NCBI GenBank assembly: GCA_000002435.2
Contig: CM018789.1
DNA length: 64,000 nucleotides
Direction: 5' to 3' (one strand)
Origin: Giardia intestinalis
Lineage: Eukaryota
The translations under genes were made by a program, and so were the position numbers. A model generated the notes under the pieces. It searched no databases and had not been told where the DNA came from. It saw only the letters and a list, made by a program, of their open reading frames with translations. Position 1 is the stretch's first letter, and each line of letters opens with the position of its first letter. Shown one piece after another: positions 1-15,734 of the stretch.

Positions 1-592
1 AGTGCCTAACTGTCCTTGCCGGTGGCATTGCACAGCGAGTGCCCTGGAGGCGCCATCATGACTACGCTTTTCTGCTCTTTTGCTTACAGAGGCCATTACT
101 GTCTGTCCGCTCATGACACCATAAACACACAAGGTCAATCCCCCTGGCACTTTACTCAGAGGTGCGCCGGCTCTTTCGGAGAAGCGCTTCTCTGTGTAGC
201 TGTCTAGTGAACAGACCAGACACGGTGGTGCTATCAGCCAAGCCACTGCTGGGCAGAGCACACGGCCTGTATCTGCTCGTCTCGTGCTCTAGCCAGCCAC
301 CCCGCGTGAGCATCTGGAGGCGTGCCTGGACATATGCGTGGTATTCTGCGGTGTGCACGGTCTCGTGTCCGCACAGTAGGCCAGCCAGGGAGCGTGTGCA
401 GGCACGTCATGTGGCACCACGTCCTTTGTGGAATGCTGGAGGACCACACAGGCGAGGGTCTACCATCAAGATACGGACACGTTGCTTCCTGACATGGAAG
501 GTCAATGAGGCTATCCAGATGGCCCAGCCACGGTAGAAGGCTAGCAGATGTGATCGTATTGGCCACCAGCACTGTCACTAATACCAACATGC

Positions 593-3400
593 ATGATTAA
601 TAGATCTAGCAGGGCCGCAATGTTGCTACTAGTTCTTTGCTTTTTGATGAGCGCTCTCGCTGCACAATGCAAGGGGCACCAGCACTCCAACTGCGCAACC
701 GGCTGGTGCAGGGCGGTCCGTGGCGTCGAGGTCTGTATGAGGTGCAAAGCGGGCCACGTGCTGATCGACGGAGTGTGCGCTGATAACTCTGTTGTCTACG
801 GCGCGGGGTCCGCCTGCCAGATTCTAAACTGCAAGCAGTGTAACGCGGACAACACGCAGTGCGAGCAGTGCGAGGACGGATACACGCCGAGCGCCGGGAA
901 TACCCAGTGCAACGAGGACGCCGCGTCCGCCTGCCAGATTCTAAACTGCAAGCAGTGTAACGCGGACAACACGCAGTGCGAGCAGTGCGAGGACGGATAC
1001 ACGCCGAGCGCCGGGAATACCCAGTGCAACGAGGACGCCGCGTCCGCCTGCCAGATTCTAAACTGCAAGCAGTGTAACGCGGACAACACGCAGTGCGAGC
1101 AGTGCGAGGACGGATACACGCCGAGCGCCGGGAATACCCAGTGCAACGAGGACGCCGCGTCCGCCTGCCAGATTCTAAACTGCAAGCAGTGTAACGCGGA
1201 CAACACGCAGTGCGAGCAGTGCGAGGACGGATACACGCCGAGCGCCGGGAATACCCAGTGCAACGAGGACGCCGCGTCCGCCTGCCAGATTCTAAACTGC
1301 AAGCAGTGTAACGCGGACAACACGCAGTGCGAGCAGTGCGAGGACGGATACACGCCGAGCGCCGGGAATACCCAGTGCAACGAGGACGCCGCGTCCGCCT
1401 GCCAGATTCTAAACTGCAAGCAGTGTAACGCGGACAACACGCAGTGCGAGCAGTGCGAGGACGGATACACGCCGAGCGCCGGGAATACCCAGTGCAACGA
1501 GGACGCCGCGTCCGCCTGCCAGATTCTAAACTGCAAGCAGTGTAACGCGGACAACACGCAGTGCGAGCAGTGCGAGGACGGATACACGCCGAGCGCCGGG
1601 AATACCCAGTGCAACGAGGACGCCGCGTCCGCCTGCCAGATTCTAAACTGCAAGCAGTGTAACGCGGACAACACGCAGTGCGAGCAGTGCGAGGACGGAT
1701 ACACGCCGAGCGCCGGGAATACCCAGTGCAACGAGGACGCCGCGTCCGCCTGCCAGATTCTAAACTGCAAGCAGTGTAACGCGGACAACACGCAGTGCGA
1801 GCAGTGCGAGGACGGATACACGCCGAGCGCCGGGAATACCCAGTGCAACGAGGACGCCGCGTCCGCCTGCCAGATTCTAAACTGCAAGCAGTGTAACGCG
1901 GACAACACGCAGTGCGAGCAGTGCGAGGACGGATACACGCCGAGCGCCGGGAATACCCAGTGCAACGAGGACGCCGCGTCCGCCTGCCAGATTCTAAACT
2001 GCAAGCAGTGTAACGCGGACAACACGCAGTGCGAGCAGTGCGAGGACGGATACACGCCGAGCGCCGGGAATACCCAGTGCAACGAGGACGCCGCGTCCGC
2101 CTGCCAGATTCTAAACTGCAAGCAGTGTAACGCGGACAACACGCAGTGCGAGCAGTGCGAGGACGGATACACGCCGAGCGCCGGGAATACCCAGTGCAAC
2201 GAGGACGCCGCGTCCGCCTGCCAGATTCTAAACTGCAAGCAGTGTAACGCGGACAACACGCAGTGCGAGCAGTGCGAGGACGGATACACGCCGAGCGCCG
2301 GGAATACCCAGTGCAACGAGGACGCCGCGTCCGCCTGCCAGATTCTAAACTGCAAGCAGTGTAACGCGGACAACACGCAGTGCGAGCAGTGCGAGGACGG
2401 ATACACGCCGAGCGCCGGGAATACCCAGTGCAACGAGAACCCAGAAGCGCGGTGCAATACTCCCAACTGTAAGACCTGTGACAACCCCAAAACAGGCAAT
2501 GAAATCTGCACTAAATGTAATGATGGCGACTACCTCACCCCTACAAACCAGTGCGCACATGACTGCACAGCCATCAGCGGATACTACGGAGATACTGACA
2601 AGAAGTGTAAGCCATGCAGCCCTGAGTGCGCTGAGTGCGTTGGGCCAGCCAACAATCAGTGTAGTGCTTGTCCTGCAGGCAAGGCATTAACATATGGAGG
2701 TGGTGATCCTGCCCAAGGGGGCACCTGCGGGGATGCGTGTACGGCGGACAAGAACGGATGTAAGGTCTGTGGGGCAAGGATCGGCGGGACAGACTACTGC
2801 TCCCAGTGCTCAGTGGGTACTCAGGCTCCTCTGAACGGGGTCTGTACGGCCAACGCGCGTGCTCAGTTCTGCACACAAGTTACCAGTGGATCCTGCACGT
2901 CTTGTAGTGGGGGCTACTTCCTCAAGAATGGTGGCTGTTACCAGGCAGATAGACAGCCAGGCAAACAGATATGTACACTAGCTGATAGCAATGGTGGATG
3001 TCAGGCGTGTGCCAATGGTCTTCCTCCTAGTTCTTCTGACGTATGCCCCTCGTGTCATTTCACCTGCAAGACATGCTCGACCGCAGACATTGCAAATACT
3101 TGTACAACGTGTGCAACTGGGTACTACATGGTCGGATCAGGGCCAAACACATGTATTTCGTGTGAAAGTGACAGTGGAAGTGTCAAGGGAGTTGCTGGCT
3201 GCATGAGCTGCGCTCCTCCATCTAGCAATACTGGCTCCGTTCTCTGCTACCTCATGAACGGTGACAGTGCCGGCGGGAGCACGAATAAGAGCGGCCTTAG
3301 CACAGGTGCCATCGCTGGCATCTCTGTGGCTGTCATCGTCGTCGTCGGGGGACTCGTCGGCTTCCTCTGCTGGTGGTTCATCTGCAGGGGCAAAGCGTAG
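593..3400 (+). CDS. vsp: Variant-specific surface protein (VSP), long form with 14 x 39-aa tandem repeats
   Basis: 935-aa ORF. It has a hydrophobic signal-like N-terminus; MLLLVLCFLMSALAAQC from the second in-frame ATG at 620 may be the real start. It is Cys-rich with many CXXC motifs and a GGCY motif (FLKNGGCYQ). A C-terminal TM helix (GAIAGISVAVIVVVGGLVGFLCWWFI) is followed by CRGKA-stop. An AGTAAAC poly(A) signal lies just downstream. Confidence 0.95.
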   Translation: MINRSSRAAMLLLVLCFLMSALAAQCKGHQHSNCATGWCRAVRGVEVCMRCKAGHVLIDGVCADNSVVYGAGSACQILNCKQCNADNTQCEQCEDGYTPSAGNTQCNEDAASACQILNCKQCNADNTQCEQCEDGYTPSAGNTQCNEDAASACQILNCKQCNADNTQCEQCEDGYTPSAGNTQCNEDAASACQILNCKQCNADNTQCEQCEDGYTPSAGNTQCNEDAASACQILNCKQCNADNTQCEQCEDGYTPSAGNTQCNEDAASACQILNCKQCNADNTQCEQCEDGYTPSAGNTQCNEDAASACQILNCKQCNADNTQCEQCEDGYTPSAGNTQCNEDAASACQILNCKQCNADNTQCEQCEDGYTPSAGNTQCNEDAASACQILNCKQCNADNTQCEQCEDGYTPSAGNTQCNEDAASACQILNCKQCNADNTQCEQCEDGYTPSAGNTQCNEDAASACQILNCKQCNADNTQCEQCEDGYTPSAGNTQCNEDAASACQILNCKQCNADNTQCEQCEDGYTPSAGNTQCNEDAASACQILNCKQCNADNTQCEQCEDGYTPSAGNTQCNEDAASACQILNCKQCNADNTQCEQCEDGYTPSAGNTQCNENPEARCNTPNCKTCDNPKTGNEICTKCNDGDYLTPTNQCAHDCTAISGYYGDTDKKCKPCSPECAECVGPANNQCSACPAGKALTYGGGDPAQGGTCGDACTADKNGCKVCGARIGGTDYCSQCSVGTQAPLNGVCTANARAQFCTQVTSGSCTSCSGGYFLKNGGCYQADRQPGKQICTLADSNGGCQACANGLPPSSSDVCPSCHFTCKTCSTADIANTCTTCATGYYMVGSGPNTCISCESDSGSVKGVAGCMSCAPPSSNTGSVLCYLMNGDSAGGSTNKSGLSTGAIAGISVAVIVVVGGLVGFLCWWFICRGKA
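808..2437 (+). repeat. Perfect 117-bp tandem array, about 13.9 units, in frame within the VSP CDS
   Basis: The period was measured directly: cgcctgccag at 811 recurs at 928. The unit encodes SACQILNCKQCNADNTQCEQCEDGYTPSAGNTQCNEDAA (6 Cys, two CXXC). Units look nucleotide-identical by eye across lines 781-2460. 1630 bp / 117 = 13.9. Confidence 0.95.
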
Positions 3401-3412
3401 ATGTACTTAGAT

Positions 3413-3419
3413 AGTAAAC
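3413..3419 (+). promoter_or_regulatory. Giardia-type polyadenylation signal AGTAAAC for the left VSP
   Basis: AGTAAAC matches the AGTRAAY consensus and starts 13 nt after the TAG stop codon at 3398-3400. Confidence 0.7.
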
Positions 3420-3912
3420 GCGTCACTGTATAAAGCATATTATACTGTGATGGGGCCCTGCCTGTGGGAGCGTCCAGAAATCCCACGAGTAAGTCTCGCC
3501 CACGTCTTGGCCAATCTGAGAGCGAGAACTGGTTGTAGACAGCAAGCAGGGACTCCTCTTTATTAGTGTATCTAAAACTTGGCACCTTCTCCGGTCGCTC
3601 TGTGGGTGTGTGCTCAGTCTGGGTGTGCACGTCGGCCGTTTCGGGGTTCAGGCCTTCTCGCAGACTCTCTGGTCCACCAGTGGCGCCTCTCCTTGGTCTT
3701 CCTTCACGGTGAGTGAAGCCCGGGCCGCTGTCTTTTTTAGATGCCCCCGTCTGTCAGGGGCTGCCATCGGGCTCTCCGCTGGCTGGGCCCCTCGGTGTCC
3801 GTCCGGCTGTGGTTCTGGGTCAGCGCTTCCACAGTCGCGGTCACTTGGGTCTCAGTGGGCCGGCTGGTGGGTGGGGCGGGGGTATGGGCGGTGAGGACTG
3901 GTGGGACCGGGT

Positions 3913-5580
3913 GGGGGCTGAGATTGGTGTCCGTATGTGCTCCTGGGTTCGGTGGGCCATTGCGGCGGTGGGTGATCCCCTCTCTGTTTGCCAAGGTGGT
4001 TGTGTCTGATCCCCAGCCTTCGTTGCACTCCCGAGACACAGGCACCGACGATCGTGTCGTGTCCCCTGACTGAGCGCCTCCCTTGGCCCCTGCATGCCTC
4101 GGGCAGTACTGCTGCTCTGGTTGACTGGTACATGAGGGATGAGGCAGGCCATCGCAGCCTCTCCTGCTACTCGCTGATGCTCTGTGCGGGTCTGCTGGGC
4201 CCCTGGCATGCCCTGTCCAGTGCCTCGACGTAGTTCACCTCGGCCAGCAGGGGTGTGGATGAGCCGGTGGATGGGATGGGTTCTCTCAGGCCTCTAGTGT
4301 GATGGCCCAGAAGACTGGCACGGTGGGGCACTGGTGGCTGCACTGTCCCCGTGGTCAGCTGTGCTGCTCCTGGTGGGTCCTTGTCATGGAGCGCTGTGTG
4401 TTGTTCATAGGCAGAGGTGAGCCTCCTTGGTTTCAAGATGCTCTACCATGCAGAGAGGAGCACGCTGAGGGTCACCCATACCTCACATCTGCTGTGCCCG
4501 TTCGGGAGTTCCCGGTGTGGTCCACCAGGACCTTGACACCTCTCGTGGCTCTGATGACCCCTCGAGGAGAGCCGGGGTGTCCTATGCCAGGGGAGGCGTG
4601 CACCCTCCTGCATGAGCTGGGACCCACTGCACTGCCCTCAAGGAGGTCTGCTATGAGAGGCAGTGGGATGATTGACGGCCCCAGAGTGCGGTGGAGGGTG
4701 CTCGTGGTCATCTCTTGTGATCGGGCATCACTCTGATGGCCAGCTCTGTGCCTGTGTGGTGCTCAGAGGCCACCTGTCTGCCTCATCGCCTGCTGGACAG
4801 CCGGGTCTCTTGTGGTGTCCGAAGGCCTCCTCACTCCTCTGGCTGCTGCCCCCTCGGGTCATCAATGAAGACAGTCGAGGCCAGCGGAGTCTTCGGTGAG
4901 TCTGGTGCCTGCCTGGGTGTCATGGGGGCTGGCAGCTGTCAGGGCTCTGCCACTGCTCACCTGCCTGGAGTGTGCCTCCCTTGGACCTACTGTGCTGCGT
5001 GAGTCCTCTGGCTTCCTATCAGGCCCTGACTGTGAGGGTGACCCCACCTGGTCCTCTGATGCCCCTGTGGATGAGCATAGCAATGTGTCTGATTGAGGAT
5101 CTCTGGTGCCCGTGTCTGTTGCTGCCTCTCGGGTGCTCGGGTAGTTGCCTGGCACTCTCGTATGGGGGCACAGTCAGCGTGTCCCGAGCAGACTCCAGTC
5201 CTCTCTGGGTCCACACAGTCTGTTCGTGTGTGGATGATCCTCCTGCACTCAGGTCCATCTGTGCACACTATCACTCAGCCTCGAGAGCAGGCCAGTGCAG
5301 TCGCCAGGGTTGCTGTCAGAGGGAGTCGTCTGCCACTACATCGCTCGAGCAGACTCTACAGATCAGGCTGGCTGCTGTGCACCCTCATGGCAGGGCTGCC
5401 TGACTCCCCTTGGTCATCCTCTCTGTCCCGGTGTGCACGGCTCCTGAGGGTTGTCTGGGTGGAGGCACTCACAGACCACGAGCACACAGAGGGGTGAGTC
5501 ATAGATGGACAGCCATCAGTCACCACAGCTGCGATCACCCCAGTCTATCGAGGGACCAGGGGCACATACAGACACCCACC
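3913..5580. other. Unique GC-rich core of the inter-VSP spacer; no credible CDS
   Basis: This is the only part of 1-7971 without a mirror copy. Many overlapping 60-145 aa ORFs occur on both strands in several frames, as expected from stop-poor GC-rich DNA. I recognise no motif in any of them. Confidence 0.6.
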
Positions 5581-6073
5581 ACCCGGTCCCACCAGTCCTC
5601 ACCGCCCATACCCCCGCCCCACCCACCAGCCGGCCCACTGAGACCCAAGTGACCGCGACTGTGGAAGCGCTGACCCAGAACCACAGCCGGACGGACACCG
5701 AGGGGCCCAGCCAGCGGAGAGCCCGATGGCAGCCCCTGACAGACGGGGGCATCTAAAAAAGACAGCGGCCCGGGCTTCACTCACCGTGAAGGAAGACCAA
5801 GGAGAGGCGCCACTGGTGGACCAGAGAGTCTGCGAGAAGGCCTGAACCCCGAAACGGCCGACGTGCACACCCAGACTGAGCACACACCCACAGAGCGACC
5901 GGAGAAGGTGCCAAGTTTTAGATACACTAATAAAGAGGAGTCCCTGCTTGCTGTCTACAACCAGTTCTCGCTCTCAGATTGGCCAAGACGTGGGCGAGAC
6001 TTACTCGTGGGATTTCTGGACGCTCCCACAGGCAGGGCCCCATCACAGTATAATATGCTTTATACAGTGACGC

Positions 6074-6080
6074 GTTTACT
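6074..6080 (-). promoter_or_regulatory. Polyadenylation signal AGTAAAC for the right VSP (mirror of 3413-3419)
   Basis: The plus strand reads gtttact, whose reverse complement is AGTAAAC. Spacing from the stop codon is the same as on the left. Confidence 0.7.
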
Positions 6081-6092
6081 ATCTAAGTACAT

Positions 6093-7379
6093 CTACGCTT
6101 TGCCCCTGCAGATGAACCACCAGCAGAGGAAGCCGACGAGTCCCCCGACGACGACGATGACAGCCACAGAGATGCCAGCGATGGCACCTGTGCTAAGGCC
6201 GCTCTTATTCGTGCTCCCGCCGGCACTGTCACCGTTCATGAGGTAGCAGAGAACGGAGCCAGTATTGCTAGATGGAGGAGCGCAGCTCATGCAGCCAGCA
6301 ACTCCCTTGACACTTCCACTGTCACTTTCACACGAAATACATGTGTTTGGCCCTGATCCGACCATGTAGTACCCAGTTGCACACGTTGTACAAGTATTTG
6401 CAATGTCTGCGGTCGAGCATGTCTTGCAGGTGAAATGACACGAGGGGCATACGTCAGAAGAACTAGGAGGAAGACCATTGGCACACGCCTGACATCCACC
6501 ATTGCTATCAGCTAGTGTACATATCTGTTTGCCTGGCTGTCTATCTGCCTGGTAACAGCCACCATTCTTGAGGAAGTAGCCCCCACTACAAGACGTGCAG
6601 GATCCACTGGTAACTTGTGTGCAGAACTGAGCACGCGCGTTGGCCGTACAGACCCCGTTCAGAGGAGCCTGAGTACCCACTGAGCACTGGGAGCAGTAGT
6701 CTGTCCCGCCGATCCTTGCCCCACAGACCTTACATCCGTTCTTGTCCGCCGTACACGCATCCCCGCAGGTGCCCCCTTGGGCAGGATCACCACCTCCATA
6801 TGTTAATGCCTTGCCTGCAGGACAAGCACTACACTGATTGTTGGCTGGCCCAACGCACTCAGCGCACTCAGGGCTGCATGGCTTACACTTCTTGTCAGTA
6901 TCTCCGTAGTATCCGCTGATGGCTGTGCAGTCATGTGCGCACTGGTTTGTAGGGGTGAGGTAGTCGCCATCATTACATTTAGTGCAGATTTCATTGCCTG
7001 TTTTGGGGTTGTCACAGGTCTTACAGTTGGGAGTATTGCACCGCGCTTCTGGGTTCTCGTTGCACTGGGTATTCCCGGCGCTCGGCGTGTATCCGTCCTC
7101 GCACTGCTCGCACTGCGTGTTGTCCGCGTTACACTGCTTGCAGTTTAGAATCTGGCAGGCGGACCCCGCGCCGTAGACAACAGAGTTATCAGCGCACACT
7201 CCGTCGATCAGCACGTGGCCCGCTTTGCACCTCATACAGACCTCGACGCCACGGACCGCCCTGCACCAGCCGGTTGCGCAGTTGGAGTGCTGGTGCCCCT
7301 TGCATTGTGCAGCGAGAGCGCTCATCAAAAAGCAAAGAACTAGTAGCAACATTGCGGCCCTGCTAGATCTATTAATCAT
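6093..7379 (-). CDS. vsp: Variant-specific surface protein (VSP), short form with a single repeat unit
   Basis: 428-aa ORF. It is amino-acid-identical to the left VSP at the N-terminus (first ~110 aa) and C-terminus (last ~318 aa, including GGCY, the TM helix and CRGKA). It lacks 507 aa, which equals 13 repeat units. An alternative start at 7352 mirrors 620. Confidence 0.95.
   Translation of the reverse strand: MINRSSRAAMLLLVLCFLMSALAAQCKGHQHSNCATGWCRAVRGVEVCMRCKAGHVLIDGVCADNSVVYGAGSACQILNCKQCNADNTQCEQCEDGYTPSAGNTQCNENPEARCNTPNCKTCDNPKTGNEICTKCNDGDYLTPTNQCAHDCTAISGYYGDTDKKCKPCSPECAECVGPANNQCSACPAGKALTYGGGDPAQGGTCGDACTADKNGCKVCGARIGGTDYCSQCSVGTQAPLNGVCTANARAQFCTQVTSGSCTSCSGGYFLKNGGCYQADRQPGKQICTLADSNGGCQACANGLPPSSSDVCPSCHFTCKTCSTADIANTCTTCATGYYMVGSGPNTCISCESDSGSVKGVAGCMSCAPPSSNTGSVLCYLMNGDSAGGSTNKSGLSTGAIAGISVAVIVVVGGLVGFLCWWFICRGKA
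7056..7164 (-). repeat. Single copy of the 117-bp repeat unit in the short VSP
   Basis: The mirror coordinates of 808-2437 collapse to 109 bp (1630-1521). The protein reads ...GSACQILNCKQCNADNTQCEQCEDGYTPSAGNTQCNENPEA... only once. Confidence 0.9.
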
Positions 7380-8049
7380 GCATGTTGGTATTAGTGACAG
7401 TGCTGGTGGCCAATACGATCACATCTGCTAGCCTTCTACCGTGGCTGGGCCATCTGGATAGCCTCATTGACCTTCCATGTCAGGAAGCAACGTGTCCGTA
7501 TCTTGATGGTAGACCCTCGCCTGTGTGGTCCTCCAGCATTCCACAAAGGACGTGGTGCCACATGACGTGCCTGCACACGCTCCCTGGCTGGCCTACTGTG
7601 CGGACACGAGACCGTGCACACCGCAGAATACCACGCATATGTCCAGGCACGCCTCCAGATGCTCACGCGGGGTGGCTGGCTAGAGCACGAGACGAGCAGA
7701 TACAGGCCGTGTGCTCTGCCCAGCAGTGGCTTGGCTGATAGCACCACCGTGTCTGGTCTGTTCACTAGACAGCTACACAGAGAAGCGCTTCTCCGAAAGA
7801 GCCGGCGCACCTCTGAGTAAAGTGCCAGGGGGATTGACCTTGTGTGTTTATGGTGTCATGAGCGGACAGACAGTAATGGCCTCTGTAAGCAAAAGAGCAG
7901 AAAAGCGTAGTCATGATGGCGCCTCCAGGGCACTCGCTGTGCAATGCCACCGGCAAGGACAGTTAGGCACTGCCAATAGGCCAGTCTGCGTCAGTAAACA
8001 CGCAGTGTTCGCAGGCCGAACCATGTACCTTTGCAAGCGGGCAGTGTAA

Positions 8050-11000
8050 CCATTTCAACTTTTAATGCTGTTAAGCGATCTGTATAGTCCGCTTCATCTG
8101 GACGCCTCACGTGCCTTCGCCGCAACCACTGCTTCCATCTCGCAAGCCAACCATGCTATTGATGGAATGAGGCAGCAATACATCCGCCGCCCTTAATTCG
8201 CCCAGGCTGCCAATTCCACCCTGCAAGCTGCCCGCCACCTACCGTAGATCGATGTGGATGCATACTGCGGTGTGGTTGGGCCTGGAATAAGCAGATCTCA
8301 ACTGGGAGTCAGTCTCCTACTCTCCGTCGTCTGGCTCTGTCTCTGGTGTGAGCAGGACCATGCAACCACGAAAGACATCAGCTCCCTGCCAGTAGACAAT
8401 ATGCGCTGCAGAATAGGAGAACGTAGTGGGCCCCTAAGCTGCCCCGCTCGAGGAGCCGCTGCTTCTTTAACAGGGTTGCCCGACGACAGCAGGCACCAGT
8501 ATGGCTACCAGGCCCTTCTGGCTCTGACTTGCAGAGCATCCCCAGCACCGCTCCGGTAAGAGCTGTCTTTCCTATTGGCTTCTGCCGTCCGGGCGTCAGT
8601 TATGGCGAGAATTAACCCTTGCCCATTGGTACTGGTCGAACACTCACTACGTGTTGCTCGTCTAGGAAAGATTGATCTTGCCGCTCCACGGGCTATTCGC
8701 CATGCTGGATGACGAACATATGTGCCACTCAGCCCCTAGTCTTTATTGGATGCAAGGCCAGCTATGCAGGGTTACAGGGCCGCCTCGCCATCCTTAAGTT
8801 GAGCTCTTAGAAGTGTCCTACGTTTTACTAGACGCAACCTAGGTCCGTCCAACTCTATGCTTTATACTAATTCTAGATTGGGTTAAGCGTGCCTGGTAGT
8901 GAAGGTATCTACGGTACTTCCACTCACCGTGAGCAGTTCATAGAAGCCCCTGTGGCTCATCGCCTTCAATACTTGTGCGTTCACTCATCGATACCTCCGC
9001 GTTATTCAGCATAACTATAGTATGTCACCTGTATGCGTCAAGCTACAGCTCCTAAGTGTCTTACAGCAAATACCTTGCGTCTGAGCACCTGGTTAATTCA
9101 GCATCCACGCGTATAAAACATGATAGAAGTCTGTGGAGTATGGTGGCTTCCATTTTCTCTTTCCCCTTTTCTGACTCTGGTTGACTTTATCTTTGCTGGG
9201 TCAAATATGCACTATCTACGCGCACCTTAATGTTAACGGCACTCGTATGTCCTGCCAGGTCATATAAATCTTTATCAGCCGTTGCATGATAATTGTCTGG
9301 CATAATATGCAATCTGGTATTGAATGAAGAATAAAGCGCCCACTTTTGTAATGAGGACTTGTTGTGCTTATGCTGGGAAATAATAGATGGTCAAGTATAA
9401 CCGTACAAGGCTGTAGGACACTCTGCTGGACGATTTTATGAGTATAGGAAGCTGCCTGCTTTAACCTACAGCTCATTTCATTCACGTCATAAGCATTTTG
9501 CCACACAAGATCACTTTAAAAGCATTCTGTGATTACCAGACATCTTTTGATACCAGTCCCGGGTCAACAAAGCAAGCTGCTTATTGTAATTTGGAAAATT
9601 GGGTAACGGCTCCATGGATTCTTGGGTATCATGCCCACTAATCAGCAACTACCAAATATCCTACTTCGCATCTACTTTTTGCAATCTGTTTTTTGTAAGA
9701 CGGCGACTGAAGCGCTAATGGCTCAGTTTCCTAGACCATCCATATCTCTACATAAAGGTTGCCATCGGAAGTCTCCATAAATAGAACATGCAAACTCGAC
9801 AGACAAGCTTCTAGTATCAGCCTTCTCACAATGTATCTATGACAACGGGTCTGTCTTTAGTCAATCGATACTTATCCAGAGAACAGTAGCGCGGCAGTAG
9901 TATAGATGATTATTACGTAGCTTATGCAGGGGCTTGTTGTCAGCAACAAGAGATAAAACAACCTTAGCCTTACAAGATTAAAAGTTCCACATTAGCTAAA
10001 AACGATAGGCTCAGTGACCATTTTTCATGCCACTCACCAAACTTAAGCCGTTTACAGATTTGACGTTTAGTTGCTCTTACAATCTTTACTCTGCTGGTTG
10101 TCTGTTTGTTTGGATCTCTAGTTAAGGTTGGGCCAGTCTGCAATCTTACTCGTGCTCAATTGCGTGACACGCCATAACCATAATATCATTTATGATCTAG
10201 CCATCTATTGCAGGCGCTACTTGCTACATCAGAAACAATGACCGTGGATCCATTACCTTCCCTTTGGTGGTCAAAGTATCATAAGGGACAGACTCTTCTC
10301 ATGTGCTGGTTGGGCCGCTTAATCTTGTCAGTACAAACTTCTCTCACGATTCAAGCTAGTTGTGATAGTGATGGCATAATTTCCCTAGCAATCAGTTACT
10401 CAGTTCAATCCTTGCCTCAATATTATAACGAGTTGGACGCCTTGAGTCACAACGAGTCGGTGAAATTAGTATCTCAAAGCTTGCACGGATGTAAAGCATC
10501 GCGTTGGACATCACTGGATAAAGGCATGTACCAGTTGAGAATTGGTGCAACTTCTGGCTAACTCTTGAAGGCCCACGCTCCCTAACATGAACGTGGACAA
10601 GGCCAATCCCAGGCTCTGCGCCATATGGGTTTGTCACGAAGTCCTTGCCAGTAGGCACACAAAGCGACTGTTCTTGTCGCTTTTCTCGTGCTGTCGGTCT
10701 TGATTTGTCCTCTATGCGGCGTGGTGCAGTAGACAACCTCACCCCCTATGACCTTCCGTTGCGCAGCTCGTAACTGCTGTACACAATGCGTCTGCAAAGA
10801 GCCGACATGACAACGGCCCTATTTGGATGCTGCCCATGCAGAACCAGGCTTACGACTGCGTCTTGCAGCTATTAGCCGTGTATTCCATTTACTGCTGATT
10901 GCCTGGTCTATTATCACATATCTATGTATTGGCAAAGCAAGGCCCGTCCTTTTCTCGAAGGCAATAAAGCAATCTATTTGATCTACACCTTGCGCCCTTA

Positions 11001-11899
11001 AGCATATATCGGAAGACTACAATCAGCTCGTTCTGACTAGACTACATCATGGAAGGCATGAAAGGTCAGTTGGGTTTGTAACATACAGTGACGTAAAGTC
11101 ATTCGCGTCTCTTCAAAGCACCAAAGCAGCCCGCAAAAGTGTTCATTCAGATGGCTTTCTATCTCCATGTGACGATGCTCATGTGGATTTTCAGTACATT
11201 TACAGTGGTATTTCTGTGCGGCTCACATGTCTTATGAAAGTCTATGTTACCGATAGCTGGATGCAGATCTTCCTATTCTGTAAGATATTCATCGTCGTTC
11301 AACGTGTTCATAGCATGACATATCTGGCGTTTGCCTAGTTTGCCAATGCAAGTGCTTTCACTCTATGCTTACAAAAAGCACGAAGCCCAAGGGAGGATGG
11401 CCACAACCCCGAGGAGCGTGTATACAGCTGGCGACTTTAAGGGCCTACGTGAAAAGTACTAATATCCGTCCATGATTGCTCTTACAGTACTTTAATAATA
11501 GGCTAATAATAGATTCCCTGATGGCTATGCAGGATGGTATGTACCACCTGCAATGTTGAAAGATGTCCCAGCATGTACAGAAACACGTTGTGTACCCTAG
11601 AATCTACCAGTGATACTGGTGTGTAGAAGCAATTCATATATAAGAAGCGGTGTGCACAGACTCACTAAGAATGAGGAGGATAATTGGCAAGCAAAATAAG
11701 CTCTTACATTATTTCAAGAAGCATGCATTCACGACTTGGAGCTAAGAATGACGTATAAGTTATTTGAAAGCATAACACACTTAGAGGCAGAGCTGCAAAT
11801 CGCCTTTATCATATACAGGCAGTCACGTGGAACCATGCATGAAGATTCATGTTGTGGCACACCTTCACAGCTTCGTGGTTGGCGTCACGCCCAAGACCT
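8050..11899. other. ORF-free stretch (gene desert) between the VSP palindrome and the core genes
   Basis: The longest track ORFs here (8254-8559, 9216-9506, 10208-10561, 10392-10742) are 96-117 aa. All four start at non-ATG codons (GTG/TTG, checked in the sequence), they overlap each other, and they carry no motif I recognise. Stop codons are frequent in all six frames. Confidence 0.7.
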
Positions 11900-12424
11900 C
11901 TAATCATCGGTGAGATCAATAGTGCTATTGCTAAGATCAATGACTGGAACCCGCTTCAGAGCCCGTTGGTGCGCAATGTATCTTACCTCTTGGTAGTAGT
12001 TGTGGCAGGCACGGATTGTAAGTCCAGCGGCCTGGTTAATTCGGTGCGCTTGTGCGTGCCAGACGGGCCCGTGATGCACTCGCTCGAACACCTTCAGTCT
12101 GAAAAGGTAGGCGTGGATCATCTCATGCACCAGCACGTCGAGCAGGTCGTGTTGTGAACGATATTGGAGTAGAGGTGCAGATAGGATAATTACAATAGGA
12201 CTATGCTCTTCTGTTCGCGTCCCTCTGTATTTGCATAGACCTGCAGAACGTGTTAGCCTATTGCTCCAATGAACCACAACATCTCTCAGGCAATTGTCGA
12301 AAAAAGCCTCGTTGAAATGCCTAAAGAGCGCGTGCACATCACCAAAAGGCCAGTGTTGTGTTTCTAGTTCCTGAGAGGTAGGTGGTGGGGCAGCAAAAAA
12401 GTCCAGGAGGGGGTTGCTATCCAT
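11900..12424 (-). CDS. SprT-like zinc metalloprotease, SPRTN/Spartan-type (DNA-protein crosslink repair) ortholog
   Basis: 174 aa from the ATG at 12424 (context CATAAAAATG). The longer track ORF would run into the neighbouring gene. Motifs: FRHFNEAFFDN...VHWSNRLTRSAGLC, HExxH in LLDVLVHEMIHAYLF, then HGPVWHAQAHRIN. These are colinear with the human SPRTN block LLHEMIHAYLF...HGPEF...HRIN as I recall it. Confidence 0.85.
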   Translation of the reverse strand: MDSNPLLDFFAAPPPTSQELETQHWPFGDVHALFRHFNEAFFDNCLRDVVVHWSNRLTRSAGLCKYRGTRTEEHSPIVIILSAPLLQYRSQHDLLDVLVHEMIHAYLFRLKVFERVHHGPVWHAQAHRINQAAGLTIRACHNYYQEVRYIAHQRALKRVPVIDLSNSTIDLTDD

Positions 12425-12428
12425 TTTT
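12425..12428. promoter_or_regulatory. 4-bp spacer (TTTT) between two divergent start codons; minimal bidirectional initiator
   Basis: The plus strand reads CAT-TTTT-ATG at 12422-12431. CAT is the SPRTN-like start codon on the minus strand, and ATG is the Nei-like start codon. Confidence 0.6.
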
Positions 12429-13847
12429 ATGCCAGAGCATCCTGAGGTTCGAGCCTTCGCAGAACGCATAACGTTTGAGGCAGAGCACACTCTCTTTACT
12501 AACGTCTCTACTTCGAGGGCGTGTGTGTATAAGGCCCTCCCACCTTTGTTCCTTGATGATTCCATAAAAGTAGCATTTACCATAAGGTGCGAATCTCGAG
12601 GCAAGCAGCTCCGAGTTGACCTGGCTCGGGCAGCTGATCCACCTAGGAATGAGGCAAAGAGTATTTTTGTGCGTCTGAAAAGAAATACATCTGACACCTC
12701 AGAGACACCCTATGATTTGTGCAAAACAACCGCTTTAAGCCGCCCCTGGGAACACTCAGATCACGCTGTGGCGCTTACCATACCAACCAGTATCGTGATT
12801 GGCCTGGGATTAGCAGGCTGTATCAACACCTTCTTAACCCCAGAGGAAGCTTTGAAGTCTAACGCACATCTCTTGTTTGAGGCATCTGATGCTGTGTTAG
12901 CAGTATGCTCGCCACGGCCAGAGACCATGTACTGGCGAGTAGGAGACTTCGACCATGCACGGTCCCCTGATCCTGTGGCACAGTACCTAGACTATGTGTC
13001 CAAGATACTGTCCAAACTGTCACATATTCCTATAGGTCTTGACGGGTCTTTCATTGTGCCACCCAAGTCGATATTTTCACAACCCATATGCCGGCTTCTT
13101 TTGTCTCAGGAATTGTTCAACGGAGTAGGGAATTACCTACGAGCAGAGGCCATGCACCGACTTCTTATTCACCCTTTCACCCCAAGCGTCTATGTGTTTG
13201 AAGAGCTTATCCATTGGGTTCATGACACCGTGCGAGAAACCCCTCGATTCCACAACTTGAGTAACAAGTGGAGAAGTCTTGCCGAAAAGAATGTCTCTAT
13301 TATCGAGACCAAGTGCCCACTCATCCCGATGATCAGAAGGCTATGTGAGGAGGCCTATGCTGTTCTGGATGATCACAGACTCTTTTCGGAGTGGCTTTTA
13401 TGCTATAAGAAAGCAACTAATTGCATTCTTGATTCCGGGGGCAGAGAAGTTTGGTTCTTCGAAAAGCTAGTCGCAAACAAATCCAGTCATGCAAGTGAGC
13501 ACGGCGATAAGAAGAATTCTGCTGAGAAGCCAGATGCATGTACCCTGTCAGAGCTCATACTGTCCTCTGAACCTAGTCTTAAAAAGGTTGCAGTACAGCA
13601 ACTGGCTACGTCAAACGCAGAAAATGTCATTCTTAATAGCACGGAGAATGATGCTGATGTCAGCCAGCTAGACATCTTGGAATACTCTCGCAAAGACCTC
13701 CTTCGACGAGGCACGGTACTCGACAATCTTCCAATTGATTCTAGAAACGAGTCAGCTAGTCGATGGCAGGACAAGATTGTTCGGAAGAGTACTGTCCAAC
13801 AATTACATGACGCTCGAACGTTTCAAGCAAGCCTCCAGTCGAAGTAA
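12429..13847 (+). CDS. Fpg/Nei-family DNA glycosylase, NEIL1-like
   Basis: 472 aa from the ATG at 12429; the track start at 12414 is TTG. The N-terminus MPEHPEV matches the catalytic Pro2-Glu3 signature of Fpg/Nei. An H2TH motif LLLSQELFNGVGNYLRAEAMHRLLIHPF resembles E. coli Nei [20 protein letters not shown] and NEIL1 FFNGIGNYLRAEIL. AGTAAAG overlaps the TAA stop. Confidence 0.88.
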   Translation: MPEHPEVRAFAERITFEAEHTLFTNVSTSRACVYKALPPLFLDDSIKVAFTIRCESRGKQLRVDLARAADPPRNEAKSIFVRLKRNTSDTSETPYDLCKTTALSRPWEHSDHAVALTIPTSIVIGLGLAGCINTFLTPEEALKSNAHLLFEASDAVLAVCSPRPETMYWRVGDFDHARSPDPVAQYLDYVSKILSKLSHIPIGLDGSFIVPPKSIFSQPICRLLLSQELFNGVGNYLRAEAMHRLLIHPFTPSVYVFEELIHWVHDTVRETPRFHNLSNKWRSLAEKNVSIIETKCPLIPMIRRLCEEAYAVLDDHRLFSEWLLCYKKATNCILDSGGREVWFFEKLVANKSSHASEHGDKKNSAEKPDACTLSELILSSEPSLKKVAVQQLATSNAENVILNSTENDADVSQLDILEYSRKDLLRRGTVLDNLPIDSRNESASRWQDKIVRKSTVQQLHDARTFQASLQSK

Positions 13848-13865
13848 AGCAGAGAGTCCGCGGGC

Positions 13866-14399
13866 CTATATCTGCCTGACCATTATCTTATCATCCAAGG
13901 AGTACAGAAGGTGGTCGCTATACAGCTGTACAATGGGAGGCGGCTCTGTTTCAGAGATGGGCATTGTGCTTCTACAATACTGGTCTACAATCTCTAACTG
14001 ATCAGATACCTTCATGATCGTGTAGTGGTTTGCAAGAAAGAGGGCAGAACGGGCGTTGAGTAATCGTGTAAACGGGGGTTGGTGACACAGCTGGCTGTTC
14101 AACTGTTCAACCCTCTGCACCCTCAGCGGCTGCAGGCTGCCTCTCATGGCCAAGAGGTTGAGCCCGTCGGTTCCGACGGTGTAGAGCACTTGCTTGCAGG
14201 TGAGCGCGGAGTCGAAAATGGGATACGAGGGGGCCAGCTGGGCGTGTGTGTGAAGAAGGGCGTTCCTTATCAGATCCCAGACCTTCACAGACCCGTCGAT
14301 GCTGGTGGAAACCAGCGCGCTGTCGGCGACGTGCAGCGACGTCACCGCGTGGCTGTGAGAAAGGGTCGTGGCGGGGTGGGGCGGAAAAGCGTGCACCAT
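13866..14399 (-). CDS. Hypothetical protein with WD40-like repeats (short)
   Basis: 177-aa ATG-initiated ORF with a WD-type blade HSHAVTSLHVADSALVSTSIDGSVKVWDL. It is too short for a full propeller, and the ATG context is GC-rich (GACTCCCGCATGG), which is atypical for this locus. Confidence 0.55.
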   Translation of the reverse strand: MVHAFPPHPATTLSHSHAVTSLHVADSALVSTSIDGSVKVWDLIRNALLHTHAQLAPSYPIFDSALTCKQVLYTVGTDGLNLLAMRGSLQPLRVQRVEQLNSQLCHQPPFTRLLNARSALFLANHYTIMKVSDQLEIVDQYCRSTMPISETEPPPIVQLYSDHLLYSLDDKIMVRQI

Positions 14400-14523
14400 G
14401 CGGGAGTCGGACCCGCCCCAACAGCTTGGAAGGCTGTCATGCTAGCCGATACACCAATGGTGCCCGGCGCGCCGCATAAACAGCGGATAAATTAGTATGT
14501 GCTTTGAATGGTCTGGTTCAGAT

Positions 14524-15072
14524 TTACTCGGGATTGGCGGTGCGGATGAACTCGTCGAGGAGGTTCTCCTCTGGGAGCGCACGCCACCGGGTCCGCTCGG
14601 TCCCCCGCAGTGCTTCTTGCTGCCGCTGGAGCCGCTCGATGGTCTCTCGCTCACGAGCTTTGTGTACTCTTGCTTCCTCTGCGTAATTTGTAACGGCATC
14701 GATGAATTGTTTAACACCAGCAAAGGCGGTGCGGATCAGCCGCATCTCTGCAGAATCAGATGGAGGCGCAGGAGTGGTTATGTGACCCTTCTCTAGGAGC
14801 TCTCGCCGCTCTATGGAAATAGCATCCTGCAGGCGGCGCTCATACTTCTCACGCTCAACAGCCTTTTCTCGCCCTTCGCGATTGAGCATAACAGGACCGT
14901 GATCCGTTGTATTCAGGTTCTTGTTGACGATACGGCCAACTGCACTCGTAAGTTGCTCCGCGTCGTTATAGCCTAGATGCTTGCGCTTTGGCTCCCCTTC
15001 ATGTGCTGATGGTTCTGATGCAGAGTCACTGATGCTATCTGGGAGGTAGGAGATGTCTGTGTCCGATGACAT
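14524..15072 (-). CDS. Hypothetical protein, tentatively RRP15-like (rRNA processing)
   Basis: 182 aa from the ATG at 15072; the track start at 15102 is GTG. The upstream context is A/T-rich (TCTAAAAATTGTAATAGTATG). EMRLIRTAFAGVKQFIDAV resembles the RRP15 E-LRkvATrGVVqLFNAV block. AGTAAAT overlaps the TAA stop. The functional call is weak. Confidence 0.7.
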   Translation of the reverse strand: MSSDTDISYLPDSISDSASEPSAHEGEPKRKHLGYNDAEQLTSAVGRIVNKNLNTTDHGPVMLNREGREKAVEREKYERRLQDAISIERRELLEKGHITTPAPPSDSAEMRLIRTAFAGVKQFIDAVTNYAEEARVHKARERETIERLQRQQEALRGTERTRWRALPEENLLDEFIRTANPE

Positions 15073-15098: not shown

Positions 15099-15734
15099 TC
15101 ACCCTACGAGCACAGCAGATCCTTTGATTACATGGTCCTCAACGGCATCGAAGTGGACTGCGAGTTGATCATCTACCGCCACAACAGTCTCTGTATCGAA
15201 AGATGTGATAGTGGTAGCTTGGAGAAAGCGTACAACCACAACCTTGCTACGGAGAAGGATAAGCTGTCGACTAAGGGTTTCGCGGAGCTCCTTTTGGAAG
15301 GAGGCTTCTGGGTCCAATTCTGTTGCATGGTTGGACAGTATGGCTTTAATGGGTTGAAAAATGGTTGTATTGAGCAACTGGTGCGACAACTCAAGAAAGG
15401 CTCTGGCGGCATCCTGCTCATTTTCAGTGAGGTACTTTTGTAGCTCCGTCTGCATATATAGAAATGGCTTATCGCTGAGCTTTGAAAGCCGTAGACGCAC
15501 ATAGTCTTCGAAAATGAAGCGTAGCCGCTCCATGTGTAGGTGAACCATGTCTCTATGAACCTTGTCATACATTGCTATTCTGTCTTGAGATTTCGACAGG
15601 TATTCCTTAACTGTATCAAGCACCTCTTGCTCGCGCGGAAGAACGATGGGACTATAGCGCTCGTTGTTCCACAGCTGCAGAAACCTGTCGTATGCCCGTT
15701 TATTCTGTTCACTGGCCTCAAGTAGCCCGGCCAT
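15099..15734 (-). CDS. SLD5: GINS complex subunit SLD5 (GINS4)
   Basis: 211 aa. LQLWNNERYSPIVLP matches the Sld5 aW-NE-aPelL motif. HMERLRFIFEDYVRLRLSKL matches the ERirFvl-sYlR-Rl-Kie motif. The C-terminal beta domain ends ...AVEDHVIKGSAVLVG. Confidence 0.8.
   Translation of the reverse strand: MAGLLEASEQNKRAYDRFLQLWNNERYSPIVLPREQEVLDTVKEYLSKSQDRIAMYDKVHRDMVHLHMERLRFIFEDYVRLRLSKLSDKPFLYMQTELQKYLTENEQDAARAFLELSHQLLNTTIFQPIKAILSNHATELDPEASFQKELRETLSRQLILLRSKVVVVRFLQATTITSFDTETVVAVDDQLAVHFDAVEDHVIKGSAVLVG

What the first reader, a model, noticed from the sequence alone, without database searches (positions are those of the whole stretch)
7972..11899. ~3.9-kb stretch with no credible gene next to the VSP palindrome
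From 11.9 kb onward a gene starts about every 1.3 kb and spacers are mostly under 250 bp. In 7972-11899 all six frames are broken by frequent stops. The four longest track ORFs (96-117 aa) all start at GTG or TTG, overlap each other and have no motif I recognise. By eye the composition is less GC-rich than the palindrome. I see no internal repeats, no telomere-like TAGGG runs and no reverse-transcriptase-like remnant. Possible explanations are a decayed gene or retroelement at a synteny break, an outward continuation of the palindrome arm (untestable because the partner lies outside the window), or a locus for non-coding RNA.
Basis: seen in the sequence. Interest (0 to 1): 0.5.

Follow-up and report, generated by a model that had tools for sequence, protein, structure and literature searches.

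The report
Non-coding spacer inside large Giardia palindrome
The 3.9-kb stretch really has no gene, but it is not an isolated oddity: it is the non-coding spacer between a surface-antigen (VSP) gene and a SprT-like gene inside one arm of an inverted duplication of about 20 kb in Giardia, a kind of gene-poor VSP neighbourhood already described for this genome.

Summary
7972-11899 has no open frame beyond chance, no codon bias, no 3-base periodicity, no protein homologue, no Rfam family, no repeats and no unusual RNA folding.

The start at 7972 comes only from the window edge. The left arm (1-916) is 100% identical to 7056-7971 right up to base 1.

The interval has two parts. About 1 kb (7972 to ~8.9-9.0 kb) is 54% GC, like other VSP upstream regions. 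About 2.9 kb (to 11899) is 43.7% GC, the same as ordinary intergenic DNA in this window.

The G. intestinalis WB reference proteins run in consecutive accession order: WD40(636), Nei-like(637), SprT(638), [639, not retrieved, presumably the left VSP], VSP(640), SprT(641), Nei-like(642), then single-copy genes. SprT and Nei-like each occur twice with identical sequence; WD40 occurs once. Short-read contigs match 8982-14370 exactly and then run into the full WD40 gene, which is absent from the window.

So the palindrome arm most likely spans 5573-14370, about 8.8 kb, and includes the whole finding. Its partner lies left of base 1 and was not read directly.

No gene or retroelement relic was found. 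An RNA-seq-derived contig covers 8964-11899, so low-level transcription is possible. This is a known kind of feature and of low interest.

The parts
1..3920 (.). The part of the left palindrome arm that lies inside the window. It holds the VSP gene 593-3400 (+, 935 aa), which carries 14 copies of a 117-bp tandem repeat at 808-2437.
   Evidence: Arms 2323-3920 and 5573-7170 are 100% complementary. 1-916 is 100% identical to the reverse complement of 7056-7971. Tandem repeat. Pfam VSP PF03302, E=1e-100.
3921..5572 (.). Unique centre of the palindrome, 1652 bp. The 2692-bp gap between the two VSP ORFs (3401-6092) is 60.8% GC.
   Evidence: Adam et al. 2010 (PMC2996952) report 2-4 kb of non-coding DNA between inverted VSP pairs.
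5573..14370 (.). Right palindrome arm as inferred here, about 8.8 kb. It holds the VSP 3' flank, the VSP gene, the spacer, the SprT-like gene, the Nei-like gene and a WD40 3' fragment.
   Evidence: The inner 2.4 kb is mirrored inside the window. The outer part is inferred from duplicated identical SprT and Nei-like proteins with consecutive accessions on either side of the VSP pair. It is also inferred from Logan contigs that are identical over 8982-14370 and continue into the single-copy full WD40 gene.
6093..7379 (-). Right VSP gene. The ORF is 428 aa; the reference annotates 419 aa as KAE8301640.1. It has one repeat unit where the left copy has 14.
7380..8990 (.). GC-rich, non-coding region 5' of the VSP gene (54-57% GC). 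Its outer part, 7972-8990, is the first section of the finding.
   Evidence: GC values. Identity with the left arm up to the window edge. VSP 2-kb upstream regions average 53.9% GC in WB (bioRxiv 10.1101/2022.03.07.483299).
8941..8994 (.). Internal boundary. It combines a compositional shift, the recurrent left end of short-read contigs at 8964 or 8941, and a single difference at 8981 (window T, all contigs C).
   Evidence: The cause is not resolved. It could be differences between the arms or the end of RNA-seq coverage.
8991..11899 (.). 2.9-kb non-coding stretch at 43.7% GC, the composition of ordinary intergenic DNA in this window (44.6%). It lies downstream of the SprT-like gene and is covered by a contig from an RNA-seq run.
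   Evidence: RNA-seq origin of L008.
11900..12424 (-). SprT-like family protein, 174 aa, right copy (KAE8301641.1). An identical left copy is KAE8301638.1.
   Evidence: Pfam PF10263, E=1e-25..
12429..13847 (+). Endonuclease VIII-like 1 (Nei-like), 472 aa, right copy (KAE8301642.1). An identical left copy is KAE8301637.1.
13866..14370 (-). Truncated copy of the WD40 repeat gene, matching residues 127-295 of 295. The intact gene, KAE8301636.1, lies outside the window.
14371..14463 (-). Outer breakpoint of the duplication at 14370/14371, followed by tRNA-Gly(TCC) at 14391-14463.

Best explanation
7972-11899 is non-coding spacer DNA inside the right arm of a palindromic (inverted) segmental duplication of about 20 kb in Giardia intestinalis assemblage A.

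Each arm carries, from the outside inwards:
- the 3' part of a WD40 gene
- an endonuclease VIII-like gene
- a SprT-like gene
- the spacer
- a VSP gene and about 520 bp of its 3' flank

The arms face each other across a 1.65-kb unique centre. The right arm is 5573-14370. The left arm starts outside the window and ends at 3920.

The spacer has two parts. The first is about 1.6 kb of GC-rich VSP upstream sequence, of which 7972 to ~8990 lies in the finding. The second is about 2.9 kb of sequence with ordinary intergenic composition, 3' of the SprT-like gene.

The spacer encodes no protein and no recognisable RNA family. Its size reflects the generally gene-poor surroundings of VSP genes. Its perfect preservation reflects either a recent duplication or gene conversion between the arms, not selection on a product.

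What is shown: absence of coding signal, the two-part composition, arm identity up to the window edge, duplicated identical flanking genes in the reference, and the breakpoint at 14370/14371.

What is inferred: that 7972-8940 is mirrored in the left arm, that the origin was a fold-back or inverted duplication, and that the spacer has no function.
For: Not coding:
- The longest open run equals the shuffle expectation.
- Codon-usage log-odds in all six frames behave like out-of-frame sequence. The maximum is 9.1, and 37% of block shuffles reach it. Period-3 signal to noise is 0.4-2.0, against 1.6-6.5 in genes.
- No Pfam hit at E<=0.2 in six frames.
- None of 97 open stretches of 29 aa or more hits 5.8 billion proteins at E<=0.01.
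- An exhaustive phmmer search of 9219-9515(-) against 1.84 billion representatives gave 0 hits.
- No Giardia intron 3' motif.
- No Rfam hit at E<=1. Fold z-scores have mean +0.14 and minimum -2.9, the same as a coding control.
- No protein accession lies between VSP KAE8301640 and SprT KAE8301641.

Palindrome:
- 1-916 against 7056-7971 is 100% identical to the window edge.
- SprT-like has two accessions for one sequence (KAE8301638 and 641). Nei-like has two (637 and 642). WD40 has one (636). VSP is 640, and 643-645 are the next genes of the window.
- The deprecated 102-aa ORF antisense to SprT also exists twice in EukProt.
- Logan contigs from more than 100 runs are identical to 8982-14370 and then continue into the full WD40-PUF-S4 genes, which are absent from the window.
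- The window's own junction is backed by a 100% identical contig, L017.
- It is also backed by contigs that stop exactly 30 nt (k-1) inside the shared block at 14341.
- No contig branches at the SprT stop, so both copies share the AT-rich 2.9 kb.

Literature:
- Regions around VSPs are gene-poor and duplications reach about 20 kb (PMC7000408).
- VSP-flanking intergenic length has mean 2131 nt against 392 nt genome-wide, and VSP 2-kb upstream GC is 53.9% (10.1101/2022.03.07.483299).
- Inverted identical VSP pairs are separated by 2-4 kb (PMC2996952).
Against: - The left partner of 7972-14370 was never read directly, because no tool gave the sequence left of base 1.
- No independent contig crosses 8941, so 7972-8940 is only bracketed by mirrored sequence on both sides.
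- All contigs that reach 8981 carry C where the window has T, and they stop at 8964 or 8941 for a reason I could not establish.
- The left VSP (935 or 926 aa) is not in the protein collection. The window may therefore come from a different assembly or clone than GCA_000002435.2, or the repeat number differs there.
- A contig from an RNA-seq run spans 8964-11899, so saying the spacer has no product is an inference.
- Pseudogene annotations carry no protein accession and would not be seen by my test.
Confidence: 0.78

Rival explanations
1. The AT-rich 2.9 kb (about 8964-11899) is a transcription unit. It could be a long non-coding RNA, or an unusually long 3' UTR or read-through of the SprT-like mRNA on the minus strand, ending near 8941-8964.
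For: L008 is an 18-kb contig assembled from run SRR17933279. That run is RNA-seq of WB trophozoites. The contig covers 8964-11899 continuously with the SprT-like gene. More than ten runs end at the same two coordinates, 8964 or 8941. The window has an AGTGAAC poly(A)-signal-like motif on the minus strand at 8979-8985.
Against: - Giardia transcribes pervasively, so coverage alone says little.
- The contigs carry C at 8981, which turns the motif into AGTGGAC.
- The contigs have no poly(T) or poly(A) extension.
- No Rfam family matches and there is no excess structure.
- The library type of the other runs is unknown.
- AGTRAAY occurs at chance frequency in the window: 31 found, 31.9 expected.
Confidence: 0.15
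2. The stretch is the relic of a gene or a retroelement (GilM/GilT/GilD-like, or a pseudo-VSP) that has decayed beyond recognition.
For: Published CENSOR and BLASTn analyses report transposable-element relics in the flanks of duplicated VSP pairs and pseudogenes near them. The number of stops is slightly below the shuffle mean, 388 against 415 +/- 12.
Against: - No RT, endonuclease, integrase, VSP or any other Pfam domain in six frames at E<=0.2.
- No protein hit.
- No residual codon bias or periodicity.
- No repeats, terminal repeats or poly(A) tract.
- The composition equals that of ordinary intergenic DNA.
Confidence: 0.05
3. The gene-free stretch, or its join to the VSP palindrome, is an assembly artefact: a collapsed or chimeric join in a repeat-rich region.
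For: No independent contig crosses 8941. All contigs stop at 8941 or 8964 and differ from the window at 8981. Adam et al. note that inverted VSP pairs ended contigs early in the first assembly.
Against: - 8982-14370 is reproduced at 100% in more than 100 independent assemblies.
- The outer junction is reproduced by L017 and by k-1 overlaps.
- The reference annotation independently lists both gene copies flanking the VSP pair.
- The inner 916 bp of the flank is present twice in the window at 100% identity.
Confidence: 0.03

Closest known systems
Inverted (tail-to-tail) duplicated VSP gene pairs of Giardia lamblia WB, such as vsp1267 (Adam et al. 2010, PMC2996952; Xu et al. 2020, PMC7000408, Table 2)
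   Same: Two convergent VSP ORFs are separated by 2692 bp of non-coding DNA. The published range is 2.2-3.8 kb, and tail-to-tail pairs are at about 2.4-3.2 kb. The 3' flanks are identical for 520 bp and then diverge abruptly; the published range is 318-559 bp. The flanks are otherwise identical.
   Different: The two ORFs differ in tandem-repeat number: 14 copies of the 117-bp unit against 1, giving 935 and 428 aa. The pair is therefore not in the published tables of identical pairs. The duplicated outer flank is inferred to be about 7 kb and to include two non-VSP genes plus a gene fragment. For head-to-head pairs the reported 5' flank identity is 158-729 bp.
Gene-poor, GC-rich neighbourhoods of VSP genes (Xu et al. 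2020; Rodriguez-Walker et al. 2022, bioRxiv 10.1101/2022.03.07.483299)
   Same: [quoted passage not shown] The 1.6 kb upstream of the VSP is 54-57% GC, and the published mean for 2 kb upstream is 53.9%.
   Different: At 4.5 kb the distance is about twice the published VSP mean of 2131 nt. The distal 2.9 kb is not GC-rich; it has ordinary intergenic composition.
Multi-gene segmental duplications in the WB reference genome (6.9% of the genome, up to about 20 kb; Xu et al. 2020)
   Same: Identical duplicated copies of non-VSP genes (SprT-like and Nei-like) lie next to a duplicated VSP. The total inferred size is about 20.8 kb.
   Different: The paper does not describe this locus. The palindromic geometry and the truncation inside a WD40 gene beside a tRNA-Gly were worked out here.
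Large near-perfect palindromes kept identical by arm-to-arm gene conversion, such as primate Y-chromosome ampliconic palindromes (from my own knowledge)
   Same: Kilobase-scale arms at about 100% identity surround a unique spacer, and the arms carry genes.
   Different: The resemblance is in geometry only. Gene conversion was not tested here, and the organism, scale and gene content differ.

Membership tests
Giardia inverted duplicated VSP pair / palindromic segmental duplication | Two VSP ORFs in inverted orientation | tested here: met
   593-3400(+) and 6093-7379(-) both match Pfam PF03302, with E=1e-100 and 1e-91. They are convergent.
Giardia inverted duplicated VSP pair / palindromic segmental duplication | 2-4 kb of non-coding DNA between the ORFs, and identical 3' flanks up to an abrupt divergence point | tested here: met
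   2692 bp lie between the ORFs. The arms are 100% identical to 3920/5573, which is 520 bp past the stops.
Giardia inverted duplicated VSP pair / palindromic segmental duplication | Identical coding sequences in the two members | tested here: not met
   The sequences are identical except for repeat copy number: 14 against 1 copy of the 117-bp unit, giving 935 against 428 aa.
Giardia inverted duplicated VSP pair / palindromic segmental duplication | The outer (5') flank is mirrored in the partner arm across 7972-11899 | tested here: inconclusive
   The direct test is impossible because the partner lies outside the window. Indirect evidence is strong. Identity is 100% up to the window edge. Duplicated identical SprT and Nei-like proteins bracket the VSP pair in accession order. 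Contigs link 8964-14370 to the single-copy full WD40 gene. Nothing covers 7972-8940.
Protein-coding gene or recent pseudogene | An open frame longer than chance, codon bias or 3-base periodicity, or homology to any protein | tested here: not met
   Searches were all negative. No protein accession lies in the stretch in the reference.
Non-LTR retrotransposon remnant (GilM/GilT/GilD) or other transposable-element relic | Similarity to reverse transcriptase, endonuclease or transposase in any frame | tested here: not met
   Six-frame Pfam scans found no such domain at E<=1. The protein search was also negative.
Non-LTR retrotransposon remnant (GilM/GilT/GilD) or other transposable-element relic | Nucleotide similarity to the Gil element consensus sequences, or copies dispersed across the genome | not testable with these tools
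   No Giardia genome or element library is available in the DNA collections. Within the window and the fetched loci there are no other copies.
Known non-coding RNA family (Rfam 15) | A covariance-model match | tested here: not met
   No match at E<=1 over 7000-12500. The only match in the whole window is tRNA-Gly at 14392-14463.
Telomeric or subtelomeric repeat | (TAGGG)n runs | tested here: not met
   No match in the interval. The one 2-mismatch hit in the window is at 31131.

The most novel reading that the evidence does not exclude
The spacer is transcribed, and because it sits in a perfect palindrome with convergent VSP genes, transcripts that read through the 1.65-kb centre would fold into kilobase-long hairpin dsRNA containing VSP sequence. 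The palindrome, with its long promoter-distal spacer, would then be a built-in source of Dicer substrates for the RNAi-type silencing proposed for VSP antigenic variation. The 2.9-kb AT-rich segment would be part of a long non-coding precursor, not inert DNA.
Probability: 0.06. Interest if true: 0.55.

Novelty: already known. Interest (0 to 1): 0.15.

Why it matters
The main value is practical. The stretch should not be treated as a missed gene or a new element. The boundary of the feature was set by the window edge. Reads from this locus map to two places, because the whole of 5573-14370 has an inverted twin. Coverage, SNP and expression calls here, including those for the SprT-like and Nei-like DNA-repair genes, therefore need handling that allows for multi-mapping.

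The locus also gives one worked example of two published points for Giardia: gene-poor VSP surroundings and duplications of up to 20 kb. It has one precisely placed outer breakpoint (14370/14371, inside a WD40 gene, 20 nt from a tRNA-Gly) and a 14-against-1 repeat-number difference between arms that are otherwise identical. Both could be used to study how VSP palindromes arise and how they are kept identical.

Tried and rejected
Negative searches on the interval:
- Six-frame Pfam scan of 7700-12000 with stops masked. Only two hits, E=0.2-0.3 to DUF families, which are noise.
The reduced query of 97 open stretches of 29 aa or more found nothing.
The single best-scoring frame, 9219-9515(-), gave 0 hits.
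- Rfam at E<=1 and over the whole window at gathering scores: only the tRNA.
- The RNA-fold z-score scan showed no enrichment.
- Giardia intron 3' motif CTRACACRCAG: none in the interval.
- Sensitive blastn of the interval against the window and against all fetched Giardia loci found no diverged repeats.

Attempts to reach the sequence left of the window or across 7972-8964:
- Exact look-ups of both VSPs.
- Exact look-ups of the 118-aa ORFs at 234-590 and 7382-7738.
- Exact look-up of the 101-aa ORF at 8254-8559.
- A homology search with all open stretches of 7383-8060.
- An exact 30-mer scan of JGI metagenomes.
- A SprT-based locus search in metagenomes, which returned only distant eukaryotic and other SprT genes at 58% identity or less, and no Giardia.

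All of these failed.

Orthologous locus of another assemblage (P0002, 88% aa identity, about 76% nt identity, probably assemblage B):
- Homology to the window stops exactly at the SprT stop codon.
- The contigs extend only 350-550 bp further, so conservation of the spacer could not be assessed.

Ideas considered and dropped:
- A centromere-like AT-rich region. Its GC equals that of ordinary intergenic DNA, and there are no repeats.
- A poly(A) site at 8964. The contigs lack the signal base and have no A tail.
Full report
**Identity of the window.** The two large ORFs at 593-3400(+) and 6093-7379(-) are Giardia variant-specific surface proteins (Pfam PF03302, E=1e-100 and 1e-91). The neighbouring proteins are found with identical sequence in Giardia intestinalis WB (ATCC 50803) records.

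**Check of the observation.** Between the right VSP start (7379) and the stop of the next credible gene (11900) the ORF list holds nothing longer than 124 aa. Inside 7972-11899 the four longest are 96-117 aa and all start at GTG or TTG. The longest stop-free run is 121 codons. 500 dinucleotide-preserving shuffles give a mean of 120.6 (sd 24.3), and 43% of them reach 121, so these ORFs are what chance produces.

I trained a codon-usage log-odds model on half of the long genes in the window.
- Held-out genes score +9.9 +/- 5.3 per 60 codons in frame.
- Held-out genes score -19.1 +/- 12 out of frame.
- The target scores -15.5 +/- 9.8 over all six frames. Its maximum is 9.1, which 37% of block shuffles reach.

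Period-3 signal to noise is 0.4-2.0 across the target, against 1.6-6.5 in genes. The gap is exceptional for this window. It is 4520 bp, the palindrome centre is 2692 bp, and every gap to the right of 12 kb is 870 bp or less.

Two corrections are needed.
- The GC drop applies only to the distal part.
- The coordinate 7972 has no biological meaning.

**The interval has two parts.** 7972-8990 is 53.7% GC, close to the 56.8% of 7380-7971. 8991-11899 is 43.7% GC, essentially the same as pooled intergenic DNA from the rest of the window (44.6%). ORFs there are 48.6% GC. The maximum-likelihood change point is near 8794, and 100-nt windows fall to about 0.43 from 9000 on. The GC-rich 1.6 kb upstream of the VSP fits the published average of 53.9% GC for the 2 kb upstream of WB VSP genes (10.1101/2022.03.07.483299).

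**Search for a hidden product.**
- Six-frame translations of 7700-12000 with stops masked gave no Pfam family below E=0.2.
- All 97 open stretches of 29 aa or more from 7951-11910 were joined and searched against 5.8 billion proteins. That collection includes the NCBI and UniRef Giardia proteomes. Nothing scored at E<=0.01.
- The frame with the best codon score, 9219-9515(-), gave 0 hits at E<=0.001 in an exhaustive phmmer search of 1.84 billion representatives.
- Rfam 15 at E<=1 found nothing in 7000-12500. The only Rfam or ARAGORN hit in the whole window is tRNA-Gly(TCC) at 14391-14463.
- A sliding RNA-fold z-score scan (120 nt, both strands) gave mean +0.14, minimum -2.86 and 3.6% of windows below -2. 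A coding control gave mean +0.09, minimum -3.11 and 3.1%.
- The Giardia intron 3' motif is absent.

**The palindrome does not end at 7971.** The inverted repeat reported as 1-961 / 7011-7971 at 98% has all 20 of its mismatches at 917-959, where the tandem-repeat registers differ. 1-916 against 7056-7971 is 100% identical. An arm that is still perfect at window base 1 has been cut by the window, not by biology.

**How far the arm goes.** Exact-sequence look-ups gave the key result.

| Protein | Accession(s) |
|---|---|
| WD40 repeat protein, 295 aa | KAE8301636.1 (one only) |
| Endonuclease VIII-like 1, 472 aa | KAE8301637.1 and KAE8301642.1 |
| SprT-like, 174 aa | KAE8301638.1 and KAE8301641.1 |
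| Right VSP (annotated 419 aa) | KAE8301640.1 |
| Next three genes of the window: 14524-15072, 15099-15734, 15747-16964 | KAE8301643.1, 644.1, 645.1 |

All of these are listed with a longest carrying contig of 1,485,438 bp. KAE8301639 was not retrieved and is presumably the left VSP. Read in order, the accessions give WD40, Nei-like, SprT, [639], VSP, SprT, Nei-like, then the unique genes. The window starts inside 639 and runs upward.

The deprecated 102-aa ORF antisense to SprT (11849-12157, GL50803_115501) is likewise present twice in EukProt, once beside each SprT copy.

No protein accession lies between VSP(640) and SprT(641). The current reference annotation therefore has no coding gene in the stretch.

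**Independent sequence evidence.** Short-read (Logan) contigs that carry the Nei-like gene come from 132 blocks of the collection. The longest ones match the window from 8964 or 8941 to 14370. They are 100% identical over 8982-14370, with one difference from the window at 8981. At 14371 they leave the window and continue into the rest of the WD40 gene, then a PUF protein, ribosomal protein S4 and further genes that are absent from the 64-kb window.

The WD40 piece in the window matches residues 127-295 of 295. The window's own junction is real:
- L017 (SRR12825854) covers 13083-14927 at 100%.
- Contigs coming from the right stop at 14341, exactly 30 nt (k-1 for k=31) inside the shared block. 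This is the signature of a branch, so both junctions coexist in those samples.

No contig branches at the SprT stop codon, so both SprT copies are followed by the same 2.9 kb.

Another assemblage has SprT at 88% aa identity and coding DNA at about 76% nt identity, and is probably assemblage B. It shows the PUF-WD40-Nei-SprT order with an intact WD40 gene. The intact copy is therefore ancestral and the window's copy is the derived, truncated one.

**Resulting model.** The right arm is 5573-14370 (8798 bp). The left arm is its mirror plus 13 extra 117-bp repeats (1521 bp). The centre is 3921-5572 (1652 bp). The total is about 20.8 kb. The finding lies entirely inside the right arm, as the spacer between the VSP and SprT. 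This matches the statement that WB contains multi-gene duplications of up to about 20 kb (PMC7000408).

The one piece not covered by any evidence is 7972-8940, which is only bracketed by mirrored sequence on both sides. Every contig that approaches it stops at 8964 or 8941 and carries C at 8981 where the window has T. Clustered differences between the arms, or the end of RNA-seq coverage, could explain this. I could not decide between them.

**Transcription.** SRR17933279, the source of the 18-kb contig L008, is an RNA-seq run of WB trophozoites. The AT-rich 2.9 kb is therefore represented in RNA, contiguous with the SprT-like gene. This keeps a long non-coding RNA or read-through reading alive. 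The evidence for it is weak, for these reasons:
- Giardia transcribes pervasively.
- The minus-strand AGTGAAC motif at 8979-8985 is AGTGGAC in the contigs.
- The contigs have no A or T tail.
- AGTRAAY occurs at chance frequency in the window.

**Comparison across assemblages.** In the probable assemblage B contigs, homology to the window ends exactly at the SprT stop. The 350-550 bp available beyond it are also AT-rich (40% GC against 46% for the SprT coding sequence) and ORF-poor. They are polymorphic, at 95-99% identity among isolates. An AT-rich non-coding region 3' of SprT is therefore not peculiar to assemblage A, but conservation of the spacer cannot be judged from this.

**What is known already.**
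- Regions around VSPs tend to be gene-poor (PMC7000408).
- VSP-to-neighbour distances have median 1280 nt and mean 2131 nt, against 79 and 392 nt genome-wide.
- Identical inverted VSP pairs are separated by 2-4 kb of non-coding DNA and share flanks up to an abrupt divergence point (PMC2996952).

The locus is an instance of these published features, and both gene copies are already annotated in the reference.

**Verdict.** The decayed gene or retroelement is not supported. The ncRNA locus is not supported but not excluded. The feature is of a known kind and of low interest.

Noticed in passing
window 14370-14463: This is the outer breakpoint of the duplication. The WD40 gene copy is cut after the codons for residues 127-295 and is joined 20 nt from the 3' end of a tRNA-Gly(TCC) gene. 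More than 100 short-read assemblies, and another assemblage, carry the intact WD40-PUF-S4 continuation instead.
   Followed up: yes
window 808-2437 versus 7011-7170: The two VSP copies are otherwise 100% identical but differ 14 to 1 in copies of a 117-bp (39-aa) tandem repeat, giving 935 and 428 aa. The 935-aa and 926-aa forms are not in the protein collection, so the repeat number may differ between assemblies or clones.
   Followed up: partly
window 8941-8994: All short-read contigs entering from the right stop at 8964 (10 or more runs) or at 8941 (3 runs). All carry C at 8981 where the window has T. In the window, T creates a minus-strand AGTGAAC poly(A)-signal-like motif. The cause of the recurrent ends is unexplained.
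   Followed up: partly
window 11900-13847: Two DNA-repair-type genes sit head to head only 4 bp apart: a SprT-like protease and an endonuclease VIII-like (Nei/Fpg H2TH) protein. Both are duplicated as part of the palindrome, so WB carries two identical copies of each.
   Followed up: partly
window 11849-12157 (+): This 102-aa ATG ORF, antisense to the SprT-like gene, is the deprecated hypothetical protein GL50803_115501. An automatic gene caller still called it on Logan contigs in place of SprT.
   Followed up: yes
window 10500-10900: A 400-bp island of 50-55% GC lies inside the AT-rich stretch. It holds the lowest fold z-scores of the interval (-2.9 and -2.7), which is not significant against the coding control.
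   Followed up: partly
L020-L027 (loci of another assemblage, downstream of SprT): The non-coding DNA after the SprT stop is 95-99% identical among isolates of that assemblage. All of these contigs end within 30-550 bp of the stop, which fits assembly fragmentation caused by high allelic variation.
   Followed up: no
window 3401-6092: The 2692 bp between the two VSP ORFs is 60.8% GC and, like the spacer, has only short overlapping ORFs. Published work reports pseudogenes between tail-to-tail VSP pairs. This was not examined here.
   Followed up: no
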